The position numbers were made by a program, and so were the translations under genes. A DNA stretch of 18,162 nt from a virus (lineage: Duplodnaviria > Heunggongvirae > Uroviricota > Caudoviricetes), in IMG/VR virus record IMGVR_UViG_2526164594_000016, positions 1 to 18,162 of that record. The stretch is one strand, 5' to 3'. This document shows positions 118 to 5,166 of the stretch, piece by piece (position 1 is the first letter of the stretch; each line of letters begins with the position of its first letter). The notes under the pieces are model-generated. The model searched no databases. It was not told the origin of the DNA and saw only the letters and a list, made by a program, of their open reading frames with translations.

Positions 118-1968
118 TTATGCTGCCGGTGCATTTATCTCCAGCACCAGACTTTCTATCTCAACGCCATACGCTGCATTTTTTGTAACATCCGTCAGCG
201 TCAGCGCATTCAGTCCCAGTGTCAGACTGTCTTTTATAACCTGGAATGCCGGGCCAGCCACTCCATTCAGTTTCGGAGTAACCGTGGCACTGCCGGCGGT
301 GAACACCAGCTCCAGCGTCTGCCAGTCGTTACCGTAATCGCCGAACTCCCCCAGCTTCGTGTTTCCGGCTTTCCTGTGATGCATCAGATTCACTCTGCCG
401 TCAGTGGTCTGAGTGAAGTACGACATCAGGAACGGATTACCGGTACCCGTCATCGCCACACCATCAGGAACGGGAGCGTCCGTATACAGATAAATCCCCA
501 GCCCGAACTGATTGTTGGTCAGTGCGCCTGACAGGCGGAACTTACAGGTCAGTCTGCCGCCCTGTGTCAGCAGGGTAATTGCGTCATCCACCGGATGCGT
601 CAGGGACCAGGTTTTATTGCTCTGCCTGGTGATCTTAAATACACCATCTGACAACTGAATTCCGCCATCCTTAATGCTCCAGCCCTGCGCAGCAGCCTCT
701 CCGGCTGCCGGCAGCAGGGAGATTGTGCGAACGGACGTATCTGCAGACGGACCCGATGGCGTGTTGCCGCCGGGCGAGGGTTTGATTTCCGGTGCCTTAC
801 CACTGATGAAGGCTGAGGTGCGCCCGGCTGCGTTCAGAATAGCGGTTGCCAGACGATCCGGAATAATGCTCCTGCGCGCCCATGAACTGAAATGTGTCGG
901 GCAGTTTGATGATACCTGGTTTCCATTCGTTCTCGATGCCGCACCGTAATATCCTGATGCCGGAATATCCGGATCTTCTGCCGGCGCGTTAGTGGCGGTA
1001 TTGACGCCGTTACCGTCTGTCATGAAGGGCACAAAATAAACGCCCTCACTCTCCCTGTTTTTATACCCGCCGTACACGGTGTCGTACTGGGTAGCGTATG
1101 TATTTTTCCAGTAATACGTCGTGTCACCACAAATCCACGGCACATCTGCAGCACTGCCACCATGGCACTGCGCGTTAAACACGGAGAGGTCAGCACGAAA
1201 CTGTGTCAGCATGGCTGTAAACAGCGCAGGTTGCTGTGCGTGGGTGGCGGCGCTCATGTCAAACTCTCCCTGCATCCAGCACACCGCCAGCAACACATTT
1301 TTCGGGTTCTTCTGTAATGCAGCTTTGGTGCGCGCAATCAGGTCCTGATATAACGGTTTACCCACACCCCAGCGCGCCGAATCCTGGCTGGCCCCCGTGG
1401 ACTCGCTGAATATCCCCTCCGCGCCCTGGGTAAATGCCGAACCACCACGACAGCATGGTACCAGCAGGATCCCCGCGTTATTCGGGATATACGGGAGCAG
1501 TTTTTTGGCAATATGTAACCCCTGGCCGACACAGCCGTACTGCCCTTTGCTCAGGTCTGCCTTCGGATGATTCAGCGTACTCATATCCTGCACATCATGC
1601 AGGCAGTGGTCGGCCGGAATAATATCGTTATATCTGCAGGCAGCCCCACCCGGCGTCACTGTACTGCGGCGCGCCAGCTGTTTAATGCGCGGATCCGGAG
1701 CATCGTATGAATCCGGCAGCGGAAGCCCTTCACCGTAAGCCATGGCATTGGACTGCCCGGCCAGTACGATGACGTAGTACCAATCCGGCTCAGTTGCACC
1801 ACTGACCACCACATCACCTTCTGCTGTAATCGCCTGCATCAGGGTATAAGGGGTTATGGCCACCGGACTACCAAACGGCTGCCAGCCCTCTTTCAGTTTG
1901 TGTGTCAGCTTTTCCGCAAGGTCTGACGGCGACGCCGCCCTGACAACATCATAATGTTTAATCGACAT
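118..1968 (-). CDS. Prophage NanS-p-type sialate O-acetylesterase (N-terminal DUF1737-like, central SGNH/DUF303 esterase with GQSN motif, C-terminal carbohydrate-binding-like region)
   Basis: 616-aa ORF; motif VIVLAGQSNAMAYGEG typical of the sialate O-acetylesterase family; ATG with GGGAG Shine-Dalgarno 8 nt upstream; position between Q/tRNAs and where lysis genes would follow, as in Stx-type phages. Confidence 0.7.
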   Translation of the reverse strand: MSIKHYDVVRAASPSDLAEKLTHKLKEGWQPFGSPVAITPYTLMQAITAEGDVVVSGATEPDWYYVIVLAGQSNAMAYGEGLPLPDSYDAPDPRIKQLARRSTVTPGGAACRYNDIIPADHCLHDVQDMSTLNHPKADLSKGQYGCVGQGLHIAKKLLPYIPNNAGILLVPCCRGGSAFTQGAEGIFSESTGASQDSARWGVGKPLYQDLIARTKAALQKNPKNVLLAVCWMQGEFDMSAATHAQQPALFTAMLTQFRADLSVFNAQCHGGSAADVPWICGDTTYYWKNTYATQYDTVYGGYKNRESEGVYFVPFMTDGNGVNTATNAPAEDPDIPASGYYGAASRTNGNQVSSNCPTHFSSWARRSIIPDRLATAILNAAGRTSAFISGKAPEIKPSPGGNTPSGPSADTSVRTISLLPAAGEAAAQGWSIKDGGIQLSDGVFKITRQSNKTWSLTHPVDDAITLLTQGGRLTCKFRLSGALTNNQFGLGIYLYTDAPVPDGVAMTGTGNPFLMSYFTQTTDGRVNLMHHRKAGNTKLGEFGDYGNDWQTLELVFTAGSATVTPKLNGVAGPAFQVIKDSLTLGLNALTLTDVTKNAAYGVEIESLVLEINAPAA

Positions 1969-2449: not shown

Positions 2450-2907
2450 AGGTGATTCTCCAGACGAAGACCCAGAACACCGGCAATCTCTTCCAGCACC
2501 TTGCGCTCTTCCGGCTCAATTTCGCCGTCTGCCTCCGCAATGGCCACCGCCACATCCAGCACATCTTCCGCTTCACGCGTATCGTGTTTCACATCCTCGA
2601 TCTCACGTAACGCCGCACGACGACCAGTTTTAAAGTTCGTATCCAGCTGACCGATAATGGTTGCGCTAATCGCATTAATTTCTGACGTAAACGCGGACAG
2701 CGCAGGCTGATTACGCAGTACCTGTTCGATCTTCGCTTTCTCGGATGCCTCACATTCACCATCTGCACAGGCCACCAGGTATGCGGCGTTAATCACCACC
2801 TGTGCCAGATCGCGTTTTTCAAACTTTTTAATTTCCGTTGCCGCTCTGCGGGCTTTTTTTACCAAAAATACCAAACATCGTGACGTTCCTTTGGGTGGGT
2901 GAGCCAA
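2446..2907 (-). CDS. TerB-domain (tellurite-resistance TerB-like) protein; start uncertain (TTG at 2907, or ATG at 2878 in another frame joined through an A7 tract)
   Basis: 153-aa ORF with TerB-like signature (AAYLVACADGE..., AIAEADGEIEPEE); no in-frame ATG anywhere in the ORF. Confidence 0.6.
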   Translation of the reverse strand: MAHPPKGTSRCLVFLVKKARRAATEIKKFEKRDLAQVVINAAYLVACADGECEASEKAKIEQVLRNQPALSAFTSEINAISATIIGQLDTNFKTGRRAALREIEDVKHDTREAEDVLDVAVAIAEADGEIEPEERKVLEEIAGVLGLRLENHL

Positions 2908-3010
2908 CGCCCGGGAGCGATCTGCCCACAGAGAAAGTCACACTGACCACTCCGTAAGCTCACCCCCGAAAGGCTCTGTGGTTGGTATGCGCCGGGCGTG
3001 GCGCAGATAC

Positions 3011-3034
3011 AAAAAAGGCCCGCCGAAGCGAGCC
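3011..3034 (-). terminator. Intrinsic terminator downstream of tRNA-Arg (stem GGCUCGC/GCGGGCC with UUCG tetraloop, then U6)
   Basis: plus-strand aaaaaa ggcccgc cgaa gcgagcc at 3011-3034. Confidence 0.5.
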
Positions 3035-3047
3035 TGGAAAATAAGTG

Positions 3048-3124
3048 TGGCGCGTTGTAGTGGAGTCGAACCACTGACCGATTGCTTAGAAGGCAATTGC
3101 TCTGTCCGGCTGAGCTAACAACGC
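3048..3124 (-). tRNA. tRNA-Arg (anticodon UCU)
   Basis: Manual fold of reverse complement: acceptor GCGUUGU/ACAACGC, D stem GCUC/GAGC, anticodon stem AUUGC/GCAAU with loop CUUCUAA, T arm AGUGG-UUCGACU-CCACU, discriminator G, CCA encoded. Confidence 0.85.
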
Positions 3125-3224
3125 AGAATACCGATAATGGACCGCCATCGGGGACCCGGCCCCGCACCAACAACCCTGTTATGGTGTCGTCTGCTCTTCC
3201 TGATAAGCTAATGGCGGTTTGTGA

Positions 3225-3300
3225 TGGTGGCCCTTGCTGGATTTGAACCAGCGACCTGGCGATTATGAGTCGCTCGCTCTCACCACTGAGCTAAAGGGCC
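3225..3300 (-). tRNA. tRNA-Ile2 type (anticodon CAU, ileX/ileZ-like; formally could be tRNA-Met)
   Basis: Manual fold: acceptor GGCCCUU/AAGGGCC, anticodon loop CUCAUAA, T loop GGUUCAAAUCC, CCA encoded; closely resembles E. coli ileX from memory. Confidence 0.8.
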
Positions 3301-3328
3301 GAGCCAAAAAATAATAATCAGATGAAAA

Positions 3329-4042
3329 TCAATAATCAAGCCCTTGCCTGGATACATATCTGTCTGGCGGGAAGCCATAATAGCGGTGAAATACAGAAAT
3401 AAAGTAGGACCGGCTTGAATAACCACATTTTTCTGCTACAGCCTGTCCATATCCATACCGGGAACATAACATATTTACAGCAACACGCATCCGCTCTTCC
3501 AGCAACAAGCGACTGAACATGCCCCCTTCATTTTTCAGTTTTGTCTTTAACAAACTCTCACTCATATGCAACTGTAGAGCAATCGCACCAAGCGTCCAGC
3601 TTGCTGATATATCTGTCTGAATTATCGCCCTGACTTTGGCACTTATGCTGGATAAACATCCACTTAAAAACAATGACATCCGTTCATCTGTTTCAAACAG
3701 AGACAGGCAGGCCATCATAAGAAACATATCCGTGACCTCTCCGGAAAATCCCTGGCTGGTAATTAAAGCCGCAGCCAACGCAGGATTGTTGGGTTCCAGC
3801 AACAGGTAAAGCGGAATGTCAGTCAGACGAGTCCTCGTCAGCTTATGCTGACTTTCCAGATATTGACTTACGACGGATTCGCTTATATCGACAATTTTAA
3901 CTTTGCCATAATGCATAAGGAAAAGCTCCCTGATGCATTTGGTGGCCAGAACGACTGAGCCTGGCTTAAGTGACAACGTATCCTTTTCAAGAAAAATATT
4001 AATTGGGGAGCAAACCATGATAACTGAACAGACAACAGCCAT
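3329..4042 (-). CDS. AraC/XylS-family transcriptional regulator (prophage moron; resembles the prophage-encoded PsrA/PsrB/PatE class in general architecture)
   Basis: 237-aa ORF; C-terminal double HTH typical of AraC family (…GYSSRSYFISVFHRYYGFPP…); no clear Shine-Dalgarno at the first ATG, so start uncertain. Confidence 0.75.
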   Translation of the reverse strand: MAVVCSVIMVCSPINIFLEKDTLSLKPGSVVLATKCIRELFLMHYGKVKIVDISESVVSQYLESQHKLTRTRLTDIPLYLLLEPNNPALAAALITSQGFSGEVTDMFLMMACLSLFETDERMSLFLSGCLSSISAKVRAIIQTDISASWTLGAIALQLHMSESLLKTKLKNEGGMFSRLLLEERMRVAVNMLCSRYGYGQAVAEKCGYSSRSYFISVFHRYYGFPPDRYVSRQGLDY

Positions 4043-4136
4043 TATAATTTTACTTTCATTAGCAATTGGTTAGCTCAATTATAGCCCCAAAAGGTAAATT
4101 ATCATCAACACATAAGCAAAGGACTGACAGGTGCCG

Positions 4137-4144
4137 CCCCCCCC
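4137..4144. repeat. Homopolymeric C8/G8 tract in the intergenic region upstream of the AraC-family gene
   Basis: cccccccc at 4137-4144, read directly. Confidence 0.9.
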
Positions 4145-4177
4145 ACCAGCCGCCCATTTACCACAAATAAAAAGCCT

Positions 4178-4375
4178 TCAGGACTGAATGCGTCTGTAAC
4201 AACCGCACTGATAGTCTGCCAGACCCGCCATAACCAGCTGGGTCAGTATTAACTGGCAGCGTTCGCGTGAAAGGTAAGTATTCTGCGCAATCTCCCCGAC
4301 TGTCGCCGGTTCGGTAACGCTTAATTCATTAAACACCACTCTGGCGGTTTCTGTCATATCCTGCTGTTTTAGCAT
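4178..4375 (-). CDS. Small putative winged-helix DNA-binding protein (65 aa); the longer 106-aa form from ATG 4498 is less likely
   Basis: ATG at 4375 preceded by AAGGG; the longer form would start directly after the terminator U-tract with no ribosome-binding site. Confidence 0.4.
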   Translation of the reverse strand: MLKQQDMTETARVVFNELSVTEPATVGEIAQNTYLSRERCQLILTQLVMAGLADYQCGCYRRIQS

Positions 4376-4498
4376 GTCTTTTTCCCTTTTCCGGTTAACG
4401 TGACATACCAATAACTCTTGTCGAAAAAGCCAGCAAGTTGAAAGACCGGTATTAGCAACCACCAGCGCGTTTAACGCCCCGTGCCGTTTTTCAGTCAT

Positions 4499-4522
4499 AA
4501 AAAAACCCGCAAAAAGCGGGCT
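4499..4522 (-). terminator. Intrinsic terminator downstream of the Q-like gene (tR'-like position)
   Basis: minus-strand GAGCCCGC-UUUUU-GCGGG followed by U7 (plus A7 at 4499-4505). Confidence 0.55.
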
Positions 4523-4599
4523 CTTTCAAATGTCCATGTCTGCTATTCGCCTCGCGGTACAGCTTTGCGAAGCTTACCGGAATTGAAGCAGTTTTTACG

Positions 4600-5166
4600 T
4601 CAAAAAGCAATAACTTTTTTCTCTATACCAAAAGCCATAACCATTGGTTTGTACAAAATAAATTCTGCCACCTTTAGCCAATGCTCAATGCGTCTTTCAC
4701 AGGTTCTTAAACTCCATTCCGGATGTGCATCATTCAGCAATTCAGCCATTTTGCGCTTAGTCATCCCCCGCCCCACATAACGCTGACTCAGAACATTGAG
4801 CAGCCCGGGATAACCTGCCAGTACTTCACCAATAACCCTATCGATTATTAACGCCTCTGAATCGGTACAATGTGCCAGCCAGCTTTTTTGATTGCCGTTG
4901 ATCATATCCCGCAAAAAAGCCTCAAGTTCAGGTTTGTCCAGACCCGCTTTTTTCATCCTCCGGAGCGCCTCGTTAATTGCCGTTTTTGTCAGCTTTTTAG
5001 AGGTCAGTAATTGGTTGAACATATTTCCCGTCTTACCGTCGCCAATATACGACCAACGCCCCCACATACGCAGTTTCCCCTGGATCCAGACACTTTCCAG
5101 CGTTTTCAGGCGTAAATGCTCACCGCTTTTGCCTGTAATTTCCGGGTATATCATATTTATGCTCAC
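4600..5166 (-). CDS. Putative late-gene antiterminator Q-like protein (non-lambda Q type); first ATG at 5154, ORF opens with GTG at 5166
   Basis: 188-aa ORF directly downstream of rusA and upstream of terminator, tRNAs and late-region morons; assignment by synteny, not by recognised motif. Confidence 0.5.
   Translation of the reverse strand: MSINMIYPEITGKSGEHLRLKTLESVWIQGKLRMWGRWSYIGDGKTGNMFNQLLTSKKLTKTAINEALRRMKKAGLDKPELEAFLRDMINGNQKSWLAHCTDSEALIIDRVIGEVLAGYPGLLNVLSQRYVGRGMTKRKMAELLNDAHPEWSLRTCERRIEHWLKVAEFILYKPMVMAFGIEKKVIAF

What the first reader, a model, noticed from the sequence alone, without database searches (positions are those of the whole stretch)
3329..4375. AraC-family regulator moron with small wHTH ORF and an upstream G8/C8 tract
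Downstream of the Q terminator sit a 65-aa winged-helix-like ORF and a 237-aa AraC-family regulator, the class of prophage regulator that can rewire host virulence and acid-resistance regulons. A C8 homopolymer (4137-4144) lies about 95 bp upstream of the regulator start, a plausible slipped-strand phase-variation element.
Basis: partly seen in the sequence, partly recalled or inferred. Interest (0 to 1): 0.45.

Follow-up and report, generated by a model that had tools for sequence, protein, structure and literature searches.

The report
Known prophage regulator psrB locus
This stretch is the already-studied psrB gene of an E. coli O157:H7 prophage, an AraC-type switch for acid resistance and virulence secretion, next to a small uncharacterised DNA-binding-fold gene; the run of eight C/G bases in front of psrB varies in length between strains but does not look like a dedicated on/off switch.

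Summary
The sequence features are all real, and all genes lie on the minus strand. The 237-aa AraC ORF (3329-4042) is 100% identical to Sakai ECs_2191 in prophage Sp11 (EDL933 OI-57). By gene order it is Z2104, the published regulator PsrB. It is 90.7% identical to psrA (ECs_1087), matching the published figure.

The 65-aa ORF (4178-4375) is a genuine, conserved gene with a confident stand-alone winged-helix model. It is not tied to psrB. It also follows Q in more than 1000 E. coli genomes and in Stx2a phages that lack psr, and it is frameshifted in psrA-type loci.

The C8 run (4137-4144) is real but no more than chance gives in 18 kb. It lies 31 nt upstream of the predicted -35 box, overlaps a Chi site and sits at a mosaic junction. 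psrA-type loci have GGGTGTTAG there instead, with an otherwise almost identical promoter.

Run length does vary among complete genomes: C6 in 3, C7 in 29, C8 in 288, C9 in 14 and C10 in none. It is sometimes the only difference across 8 kb, but it agrees across repeat assemblies of one strain. I read it as a slippage hot spot, not a demonstrated phase-variation switch. The locus is already known and of low interest.

The parts
4600..5166 (-). Late antiterminator Q gene (DUF1133 type); context, upstream boundary of the region
   Evidence: Pfam DUF1133 3.7e-105 and Phage_antitermQ 5.9e-08. It corresponds to Sakai ECs_2193.
4497..4522 (-). Intrinsic terminator about 80 nt past Q (tR'-like), upstream of the small ORF
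   Evidence: RNA fold -18.2 kcal/mol, z -4.7; 13-bp stem followed by U7. Its role as the Q-dependent tR' is inferred from position only.
4178..4375 (-). 65-aa stand-alone winged-helix protein gene (Sakai ECs_2192; Z2103 by gene order); function unknown
   Evidence: ORF. 302 homologs of 63-65 aa across Enterobacteriaceae. pN/pS 0.15-0.36. AlphaFold pLDDT 89.8. Foldseek best fits are IclR and MarR winged-helix domains, TMq up to 0.81. PHROG 331, unknown function.
4165..4191 (-). Weakened hairpin plus U-run overlapping the small ORF stop codon (leaky terminator in this allele)
   Evidence: The psrA-type allele folds as a clean 7-bp stem with U6. The window allele has a C-to-A stem mismatch and U5, and no stable fold (-6.8 kcal/mol, z +1.5).
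4143..4150 (-). Chi site (GCTGGTGG) whose last two G are the first two G of the run
   Evidence: Homology with psr-less prophages and Stx2a phages ends within about 10 nt of it.
4137..4144 (.). C8 (+) / G8 (-) homopolymer, about -73 to -66 from the predicted psrB transcription start
   Evidence: Length classes in complete genomes: C6 3, C7 29, C8 288, C9 14, C10 0. Replaced by GGGTGTTAG in psrA-type loci.
4078..4105 (-). Predicted sigma-70-type psrB promoter (-35 ATGATA 4105-4100, 16-nt spacer, -10 TATAAT 4083-4078)
   Evidence: Consensus scan, 10 of 12 matches. Both hexamers are invariant in all 8 intergenic variants. Not experimentally mapped here.
4042..4059 (-). Five-codon upstream ORF (MKVKL) whose TAA stop overlaps the psrB ATG (TAATG)
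   Evidence: Read directly from the sequence. Invariant in all intergenic variants. Function not tested.
3329..4042 (-). psrB: 237-aa AraC/XylS-family regulator, YdeO/GadX-like
   Evidence: Pfam. 100% identical to the Sakai ECs_2191 ORF and 90.7% to ECs_1087/psrA. NCBIfam YdeO model aligns over the full length, 106 bits. PDB GadX DNA-binding domain 2e-18. Literature identity Z2104 = PsrB in OI-57 (PMC10877973, PMC8565820).
3225..3300 (-). tRNA with CAT anticodon, annotated ileZ in Sakai; right-hand boundary of the insertion
   Evidence: ARAGORN, Rfam tRNA 72.5 bits, Sakai annotation ileZ5. Homology with Sp10 resumes at 3301.
3048..3124 (-). tRNA-Arg (TCT), argO, followed by a terminator at 3016-3035

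Best explanation
The region is the psrB locus of the lambdoid prophage Sp11 (CP-933O, O-island 57) of E. coli O157:H7.

**psrB.** It is an AT-rich moron inserted between the late antiterminator gene Q and the phage tRNA genes. It encodes a YdeO/GadX-like AraC/XylS regulator. According to published work, PsrB binds the gadE and hdeA promoters, turns on glutamate-dependent acid resistance and, through GadE/YhiF, lowers LEE type III secretion. In the lysogen it is most likely transcribed from its own promoter (ATGATA-16-TATAAT, about 30 nt before the ATG). After prophage induction it would also be read as part of the Q-antiterminated late transcript. Both steps are inferred.

**The 65-aa ORF.** It is an independent, widely distributed stand-alone winged-helix protein of unknown function. 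It belongs to the region just downstream of Q, not to the psrB cassette.

**The G8/C8 run.** It lies at the junction between that backbone and the psrB cassette, overlapping a Chi site. It is a derived feature of psrB-type alleles and slips by single bases on evolutionary time. It is therefore a mutational hot spot, but most likely without a dedicated switching role.
For: **Identity**
- The window is 99.78% identical to Sakai Sp11 over 13.4 kb.
- The protein is 100% identical to the ECs_2191 ORF and 90.7% to ECs_1087, which is psrA according to PMC13502914. This matches the published '90% identity' between PsrA and PsrB (PMC10877973, PMC8565820).
- OI-57 ends with nleG2-3, nleG6-2 and nleG5-2, as Sp11 does.
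- The published tags Z2101 (endonuclease), Z2103 (unknown) and Z2105 fit the order RusA, Q, small ORF, PsrB, TerB.

**Family**
- Pfam AraC HTH domains score above their cut-offs.
- The best NCBIfam models are YdeO over the full length, then GadX. The best PDB match is the GadX DNA-binding domain.

**Moron status**
- Sakai Sp10 has Q followed directly by ileZ. Window 3302-4545 is the extra segment.
- GC content is 38-47% across psrB against 50-57% in the flanks.
- The same slot holds a DNA methylase in a Stx2a phage and a psrA-type gene in phiSTEC1575-Stx2k.

**Small ORF independence**
- It occurs next to Q without psr in strain M16807, representing more than 1000 genomes with only the 39-nt match.
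- 22 of 23 phage records carry only the ORF segment.
- It is frameshifted after residue 49 in psrA-type loci.

**The run**
- It lies 31 nt upstream of the predicted -35.
- It is replaced by GGGTGTTAG in 27 of 43 fetched loci whose promoters are otherwise nearly identical.
- Length classes are 6, 7, 8 and 9.
- O145 loci L050 and L051 differ in 8 kb only by C6 versus C7, and there psrB is already cut by an IS element.
- Three 86-24 assemblies all read C9 and two RM9872 assemblies both read C7.
Against: - No transcription start was available. The promoter is only a consensus match, so the run's position relative to the real start is inferred.
- Length polymorphism between near-identical loci is what a contingency locus would also show. 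For example, 86-24 differs from Sakai by one SNP and the run across 1.7 kb.
- Some length calls may be long-read homopolymer errors.
- The primary PsrB papers (Tree 2011, Yang 2015) could not be read here. The Z2104 = ECs_2191 equivalence therefore rests on synteny, reviews and the 90% figure.
Confidence: 0.85

Rival explanations
1. The G8 run is a true slipped-strand phase-variation element. Gaining or losing one G changes the helical phasing between an upstream binding site (or AT-rich curved DNA) and the psrB core promoter. Subpopulations would then differ in PsrB level, and so in acid resistance and type III secretion.
For: - Run length differs among otherwise near-identical loci: C8 versus C9 in O157, C6 versus C7 in O145.
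- It is the only hypervariable spot in a 150-nt regulatory region that is otherwise more conserved than synonymous sites.
- The run is specific to psrB-type alleles.
- G/C runs of 8 or more are used as predictors of phase variation in other bacteria (general knowledge).
Against: - The run is outside the predicted -35/-10 spacer, at about -73 to -66.
- It is absent from psrA-type alleles with the same promoter.
- It varies equally where psrB is IS-disrupted.
- Repeat assemblies of the same strain agree.
- 86% of homopolymer-bearing records share one length.
- E. coli has active mismatch repair, and 8-nt runs slip far less often than classical contingency loci (general knowledge, not tested).
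- No C10 or longer was found.
Confidence: 0.08
2. psrB has no significant promoter of its own. It is expressed mainly by read-through from the upstream transcript (late promoter, tR', small ORF), so the run is simply part of an intergenic mRNA segment. The psrB-type allele favours this read-through because the terminator after the small ORF is weakened.
For: - The hairpin at the end of the small ORF carries a stem mismatch and a shorter U-run in this allele, and no longer folds stably.
- psrB lies in the late operon in the same orientation as Q.
- Z2103 and Z2105 gave substantial array signals in EDL933 (PMC2907692).
Against: - A perfect TATAAT with an acceptable -35 lies about 30 nt before the ATG and is invariant in all alleles.
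- Published work treats PsrA and PsrB as expressed in lysogens (reviews).
- A strong tR'-like terminator stands upstream.
- The array probes cross-hybridise among paralogous prophages.
Confidence: 0.15
3. The 65-aa winged-helix protein and PsrB form a two-gene regulatory cassette, with the small protein controlling the psrB promoter or partnering PsrB.
For: - The two genes are adjacent and in the same orientation, and they travel together behind three different Q types.
- The fold is a DNA-binding winged helix.
Against: - The small ORF is found without psr in more than 1000 genomes and in 22 of 23 phage records.
- It is frameshifted in many psrA-type loci, including Sakai Sp4, where psrA is the functional paralog (PMC8565820).
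- Homology with psr-less elements ends between the two genes.
Confidence: 0.1

Closest known systems
PsrB (Z2104; ECs2191 by gene order), prophage-encoded secretion regulator B of EHEC O157:H7 (Tree et al. 2011; Yang et al. 2015, as summarised in PMC10877973 and PMC8565820)
   Same: Amino-acid sequence identical to the Sakai Sp11 ORF. Same prophage (Sp11, OI-57) and same neighbours (Q, small ORF, ileZ, argO, TerB, pchB further on). 90.7% identical to psrA, as published.
   Different: Nothing detectable. The only addition here is the description of the upstream run and the module boundaries.
PsrA (Z1789 in the reviews; ecs1087 on Sakai Sp4 in PMC13502914)
   Same: 90.7% identical protein. Same small ORF - AraC - ileZ module and almost identical 150-nt upstream region, including the predicted promoter.
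   Different: Has GGGTGTTAG instead of the G run, a stronger terminator after the small ORF, a frameshifted small ORF, a different Q type and three tRNAs.
YdeO, GadX, GadW and AppY, the chromosomal or cryptic-prophage AraC/XylS regulators of the E. coli acid-resistance network
   Same: Same family and overall architecture. The YdeO model aligns from residue 1 to 229, and the GadX DNA-binding domain is the best solved relative. Published targets overlap (gadE, hdeA).
   Different: Scores are far below the equivalog cut-offs (106 versus 348 bits for YdeO), so it is a distinct subfamily carried on lambdoid prophages.
Promoter homopolymer phase variation (for example the Bordetella fim C-stretch, or Neisseria and Haemophilus promoter-spacer repeats)
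   Same: A G/C homopolymer upstream of a regulated gene, with inter-strain length differences.
   Different: Those tracts are usually longer. They lie within or directly next to the -35/-10 spacer or between an activator site and the -10, and they switch at high frequency. Here the run is 8 nt, about 31 nt upstream of the -35, is dispensable in paralogous alleles, and sits in a mismatch-repair-proficient host.
Winged-helix domains of IclR, MarR and TrmB regulators
   Same: Three helices plus a beta-hairpin, TMq 0.7-0.8 and rmsd 1.5-2.5 A to IclR and OhrR N-terminal domains.
   Different: Only 65 aa, with no effector or dimerisation domain. Sequence similarity to TrmB is below the Pfam threshold, and there is no solved homolog by sequence.

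Membership tests
AraC/XylS transcription regulators | C-terminal DNA-binding domain of about 100 aa with two helix-turn-helix motifs | tested here: met
   Pfam HTH_AraC 50 bits (cut-off 26.6, 2 stretches). HTH_18 37.8 bits (cut-off 33.6), residues 155-230. GadX DNA-binding domain 3mkl 2.2e-18, Rns 5e-16.
PsrA/PsrB prophage secretion regulators | Sequence identity with the named gene and location in OI-57/Sp11 | tested here: met
   100% identical to the Sakai ECs_2191 ORF. Window 99.78% identical to Sp11. 90.7% to ECs_1087/psrA. OI-57 content from PMC8565820. No Z2104 sequence was compared directly.
PsrA/PsrB prophage secretion regulators | Activates gadE/hdeA and represses type III secretion | not testable with these tools
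   Taken from reviews PMC10877973 and PMC8565820. The primary papers are not held.
Phage moron | Present or absent between conserved phage genes in related phages | tested here: met
   Sp10 has Q directly followed by ileZ, so window 3302-4545 is extra. Other phages carry alternative cargo in the same slot.
Phage moron | Own promoter and terminator, and deviant base composition | tested here: inconclusive
   Consensus promoter 4105-4078. GC 38-47% against 50-57% in the flanks. No terminator lies between psrB and ileZ; the first one is at 3016-3035, after argO. No transcript data.
Simple-sequence-repeat phase-variation (contingency) locus | Repeat inside the reading frame or the core promoter spacer | tested here: not met
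   The run is intergenic and lies 31 nt upstream of the predicted -35, not in the 16-nt spacer. This rests on a predicted promoter.
Simple-sequence-repeat phase-variation (contingency) locus | Repeat length differs among closely related strains | tested here: met
   C6 3, C7 29, C8 288, C9 14 records. It is the only difference in 8 kb between two O145 strains. 86-24 and 493/89 have C9 at the orthologous locus.
Simple-sequence-repeat phase-variation (contingency) locus | Length heterogeneity within one strain or culture, at high frequency | tested here: inconclusive
   No reads were available. Three 86-24 assemblies all read C9 and two RM9872 assemblies both read C7. This argues against very frequent switching.
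Simple-sequence-repeat phase-variation (contingency) locus | Length change alters expression | not testable with these tools
   Needs reporter fusions.
TrmB family (Pfam PF01978) | Score above the Pfam gathering threshold | tested here: not met
   18.3 bits against a cut-off of 25.6. No NCBIfam hit. The NCBI name 'TrmB family transcriptional regulator' appears on cluster members.
Winged helix-turn-helix fold | Three-helix bundle followed by a beta-hairpin wing | tested here: met
   AlphaFold pLDDT 89.8: H4-16, H26-33, H37-49, E53-56, E59-62. Foldseek to the IclR winged-helix domain 2g7u gives TMq 0.81, rmsd 1.5-1.9 A.

The most novel reading that the evidence does not exclude
The length of the G run (6-9 nt, or its GGGTGTTAG counterpart in psrA-type alleles) tunes psrB transcription by changing the phasing of upstream DNA relative to the promoter. 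On this reading, heritable run-length differences between EHEC lineages (for example C9 in 86-24 and 493/89, C8 in Sakai) contribute to lineage differences in acid resistance and type III secretion. They could also help explain why psrA and psrB deletions behave differently despite 90% identical proteins.
Probability: 0.08. Interest if true: 0.45.

Novelty: already known. Interest (0 to 1): 0.2.

Why it matters
PsrB links prophage carriage to acid resistance and type III secretion in EHEC, but that link is already published. This check adds three small points:
- The neighbouring winged-helix gene is a separate, widespread and uncharacterised gene downstream of Q. It also sits upstream of stx2 in Stx2a phages.
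- The slot between that gene and ileZ is a recombination-prone cargo site next to a Chi site.
- The G run is a lineage-variable hot spot.

None of these changes current understanding unless run length proves to affect expression.

Tried and rejected
- **Primary papers.** I tried to read the PsrB and PatE papers (PMC4288888, PMC3416394). They are not held. A full-text search for ECs2191 and Z2104 returned only reviews. The 2026 HnrS paper has no held supplements.
- **EDL933 record.** NC_002655 is not in the collection, so Z-number identity was inferred from Sakai synteny and reviews.
- **Run as an RNA element.** Rfam found only the two tRNAs above threshold. The weak isrK hit (E 0.17) lies upstream at tR', not at the run.
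- **Sigma-54 promoter.** I read the CGGCAC...TTGC next to the run as a possible sigma-54 promoter. I rejected it because the spacing is 11 nt instead of about 5 (read from the sequence).
- **G-quadruplex.** Only three GGG runs are available, so this was rejected (read from the sequence).
- **106-aa version of the small ORF.** It would start at 4498. I rejected it because that ATG lies inside the terminator hairpin and homologs in other genera are 63-65 aa.
- **HnrS sRNA.** I asked whether this locus encodes it. The paper places it on Sp9, Sp10 and Sp12, not Sp11.
- **C9 as independent recurrence in O157.** The flanking haplotypes conflict with the run state. Recombination in the TerB region could explain that equally well, so this stays open.

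Full report
**Observation**

Reading the window and listing ORFs shows that everything in the finding lies on the minus strand. Downstream of a DUF1133-type antiterminator gene Q (4600-5166; Pfam 3.7e-105) the order is:

- a strong hairpin plus U-run at 4497-4522 (-18.2 kcal/mol, z -4.7);
- a 65-aa ORF at 4178-4375;
- the C8/G8 run at 4137-4144, the only G/C run of 7 or more in the window;
- a 237-aa ORF at 3329-4042 with AraC HTH domains above the Pfam cut-offs;
- two tRNA genes at 3225-3300 and 3048-3124.

Ninety-four nucleotides separate the run from the ATG, so 'about 95 bp' is right. One C8 in 18 kb is not unusual: 65 of 200 shuffles contain at least one.

**Identity of the regulator**

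The 1.4-kb region is 100% identical in many O157:H7 genomes. The window matches Sakai prophage Sp11 at 99.78% over 13.4 kb. In Sakai numbering the AraC ORF is ECs_2191, the small ORF ECs_2192 and Q ECs_2193.

Sp11 ends with nleG2-3, nleG6-2 and nleG5-2. These are the genes that close O-island 57 of EDL933 (z2149-z2151; PMC8565820). An EDL933 array paper lists Z2101 as an endonuclease and Z2103 and Z2105 as unknown CP-933O genes. That fits the order RusA, Q, small ORF, Z2104, TerB.

Reviews name Z2104 as PsrB, a prophage AraC-like regulator 90% identical to PsrA. According to those reviews it binds the gadE and hdeA promoters, raises acid resistance, and represses type III secretion through GadE/YhiF. 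The window protein is 100% identical to the Sakai Sp11 ORF and 90.7% identical to ECs_1087 on Sp4. A 2026 paper calls ECs_1087 psrA.

The best family models are YdeO, aligned from residue 1 to 229, and then GadX. The best solved relative is the GadX DNA-binding domain. The full-length YdeO alignment also shows that the 237-aa start is correct and the 195-aa Sakai annotation is too short. The regulator is therefore PsrB, already characterised. I could not read the primary papers.

**Moron status and boundaries**

- Sakai Sp10 has a homologous Q followed within 140 nt by ileZ. Relative to it, window 3302-4545 is extra DNA.
- psrB is AT-rich: 38-47% GC against 50-57% in the flanks.
- A consensus promoter lies at 4105-4078 (ATGATA, 16 nt, TATAAT). 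It is invariant in all eight intergenic variants I collected.
- The first terminator after psrB lies beyond the tRNAs, at 3016-3035.
- The same slot holds different cargo elsewhere: a psrA-type gene behind other Q types (Sakai Sp4, O55:H7, and phiSTEC1575-Stx2k directly upstream of stx2k), a DNA methylase in Stx2a phages, or nothing.

**The small ORF**

It is a real gene.

- 302 homologs of 63-65 aa occur in Escherichia, Shigella, Salmonella, Klebsiella, Citrobacter and Buttiauxella, with an invariant ERCQLILTQLV motif.
- pN/pS among alleles is 0.15-0.36.
- The AlphaFold model is confident (pLDDT 89.8): three helices and a beta-hairpin.
- Foldseek places it on the winged-helix domains of IclR and MarR regulators, TMq up to 0.81.
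- It fails the Pfam TrmB threshold. It belongs to PHROG 331, of unknown function.

It is not specific to psrB.

- An 81-nt probe showed that more than 1000 genomes match only the 39 nt from the ORF end to the run.
- In strain M16807, one of those genomes, the ORF follows Q and is followed by a DUF3927 remnant and iraM.
- In 22 of 23 phage records only the ORF segment is present.
- In psrA-type loci, including Sakai Sp4, the ORF is frameshifted after residue 49.

**The run**

On the coding strand the sequence reads GGCGGCTGGTGGGGGGGGCGGCACC. The Chi octamer GCTGGTGG (4143-4150) overlaps the first two G of the run. Homology with psr-less prophages ends at window 4134, and with Stx2a phages a few bases further on. 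The run therefore sits at a mosaic junction.

psrA-type loci, Stx2a phages and M16807 begin this segment with GGGTGT. The homopolymer is thus a derived state of psrB-type alleles. Apart from this segment, the 150-nt upstream regions of psrA- and psrB-type loci differ at only two or three positions.

**Length variation**

Exact-flank probes against 5426 complete E. coli genomes gave the following counts:

| Run length | Records |
|---|---|
| C6 | 3 |
| C7 | 29 |
| C8 | 288 |
| C9 | 14 |
| C10 | 0 |

- IMG/VR loci gave C7, C8 and C9 in 1, 7 and 2 cases, against 26 with the interrupted sequence.
- C9 occurs at the orthologous Sp11 locus in 86-24 and 493/89.
- In a five-strain alignment, the 1.7 kb around psrB differs only at the run and at one SNP.
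- Two O145:H28 loci differ in 8 kb only by C6 versus C7. In those strains the psrB-like gene is cut by an IS3-family element after about codon 20.
- Three 86-24 assemblies all read C9, and two RM9872 assemblies both read C7.

The run is clearly the fastest-changing site. However, it is stable within strains, it changes where no regulation can be selected, and some calls may be long-read errors.

**Interpretation**

With the predicted start near 4071, the run spans about -73 to -66, outside the core promoter. Four points make a dedicated phase-variation switch unlikely:

- its absence from psrA-type alleles that share the promoter;
- its short length;
- the mismatch-repair-proficient host (general knowledge);
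- its stability within strains.

I put that reading at about 8%. The more economical reading is a slippage-prone sequence at a Chi-associated recombination junction.

One allele-specific detail might affect psrB expression. The hairpin after the small ORF carries a stem mismatch and a shorter U-run in psrB-type loci, which could allow more read-through. This is untested.

**Verdict**

The central object is already known as PsrB. Interest is low.

Noticed in passing
window 4143-4150(-), 4459-4466(-) and 7 other sites: Nine Chi octamers in 18 kb against 0.6 expected from shuffles. Two on the same strand bracket the 65-aa ORF, and homology breakpoints with other prophages and phages cluster just past the one at 4143-4150.
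   Followed up: partly
window 3302-4177; L048 (Stx2a_WGPS2), L049 (phiSTEC1575-Stx2k), L004 (M16807), L002 (Sakai Sp10): The slot between the small ORF and ileZ carries alternative cargo in different phages: psrB, a psrA-type gene (directly upstream of stx2k), a DNA methylase upstream of stx2a, or nothing.
   Followed up: partly
window 4042-4059(-): A five-codon upstream ORF (ATGAAAGTAAAATTATAA, MKVKL) whose stop overlaps the psrB start (TAATG). It is invariant in all eight intergenic variants collected. It could mean translational coupling or nothing.
   Followed up: no
L050 and L051 (O145:H28 strains RM12367-C1 and RM9872), about 2505-3880: The psrB-like gene is interrupted after about codon 20 by an IS3-family element, so this regulator is inactivated in these O145:H28 strains.
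   Followed up: partly
L047 38343-38582 (Sakai Sp4 ECs_1086) and ten other psrA-type loci: The 65-aa winged-helix ORF carries a one-base deletion after codon 49 and continues in another frame. The gene is therefore decaying next to the functional paralog psrA.
   Followed up: partly
window 4165-4191(-): The hairpin plus U-run at the end of the small ORF is a clean terminator in psrA-type loci. In this allele it has a C-to-A stem mismatch (which also changes Leu63 to Ile) and one fewer U.
   Followed up: partly
window 4500-4573(-): The short region between Q and the strong terminator gives a sub-threshold Rfam hit to the Salmonella Gifsy-1 sRNA isrK (19.8 bits, E 0.17). It may be a short late-promoter RNA of the kind described for StxS.
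   Followed up: no
window 2853-2870: A cluster of eight differences, including one extra base, sets this window apart from four other O157 strains (Sakai, PV15-279, 86-24, 493/89) near the start of the TerB-like gene.
   Followed up: no
window 118-1968(-); L001 5906-7763: The 616-aa sialate-O-acetylesterase-like gene (DUF1737, SASA, DUF6645) is intact here but annotated as frameshifted in strain PV15-279. An indel next to the A8 run at 2055-2062 differs among strains.
   Followed up: no
window 3329-4042(-); L003 39932-40519: The Sakai annotation of ECs_2191 (588 nt, 195 aa) starts at an internal Met. The YdeO family model aligns from residue 1 of the 237-aa ORF, so the longer NCBI pipeline call is the better one.
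   Followed up: yes
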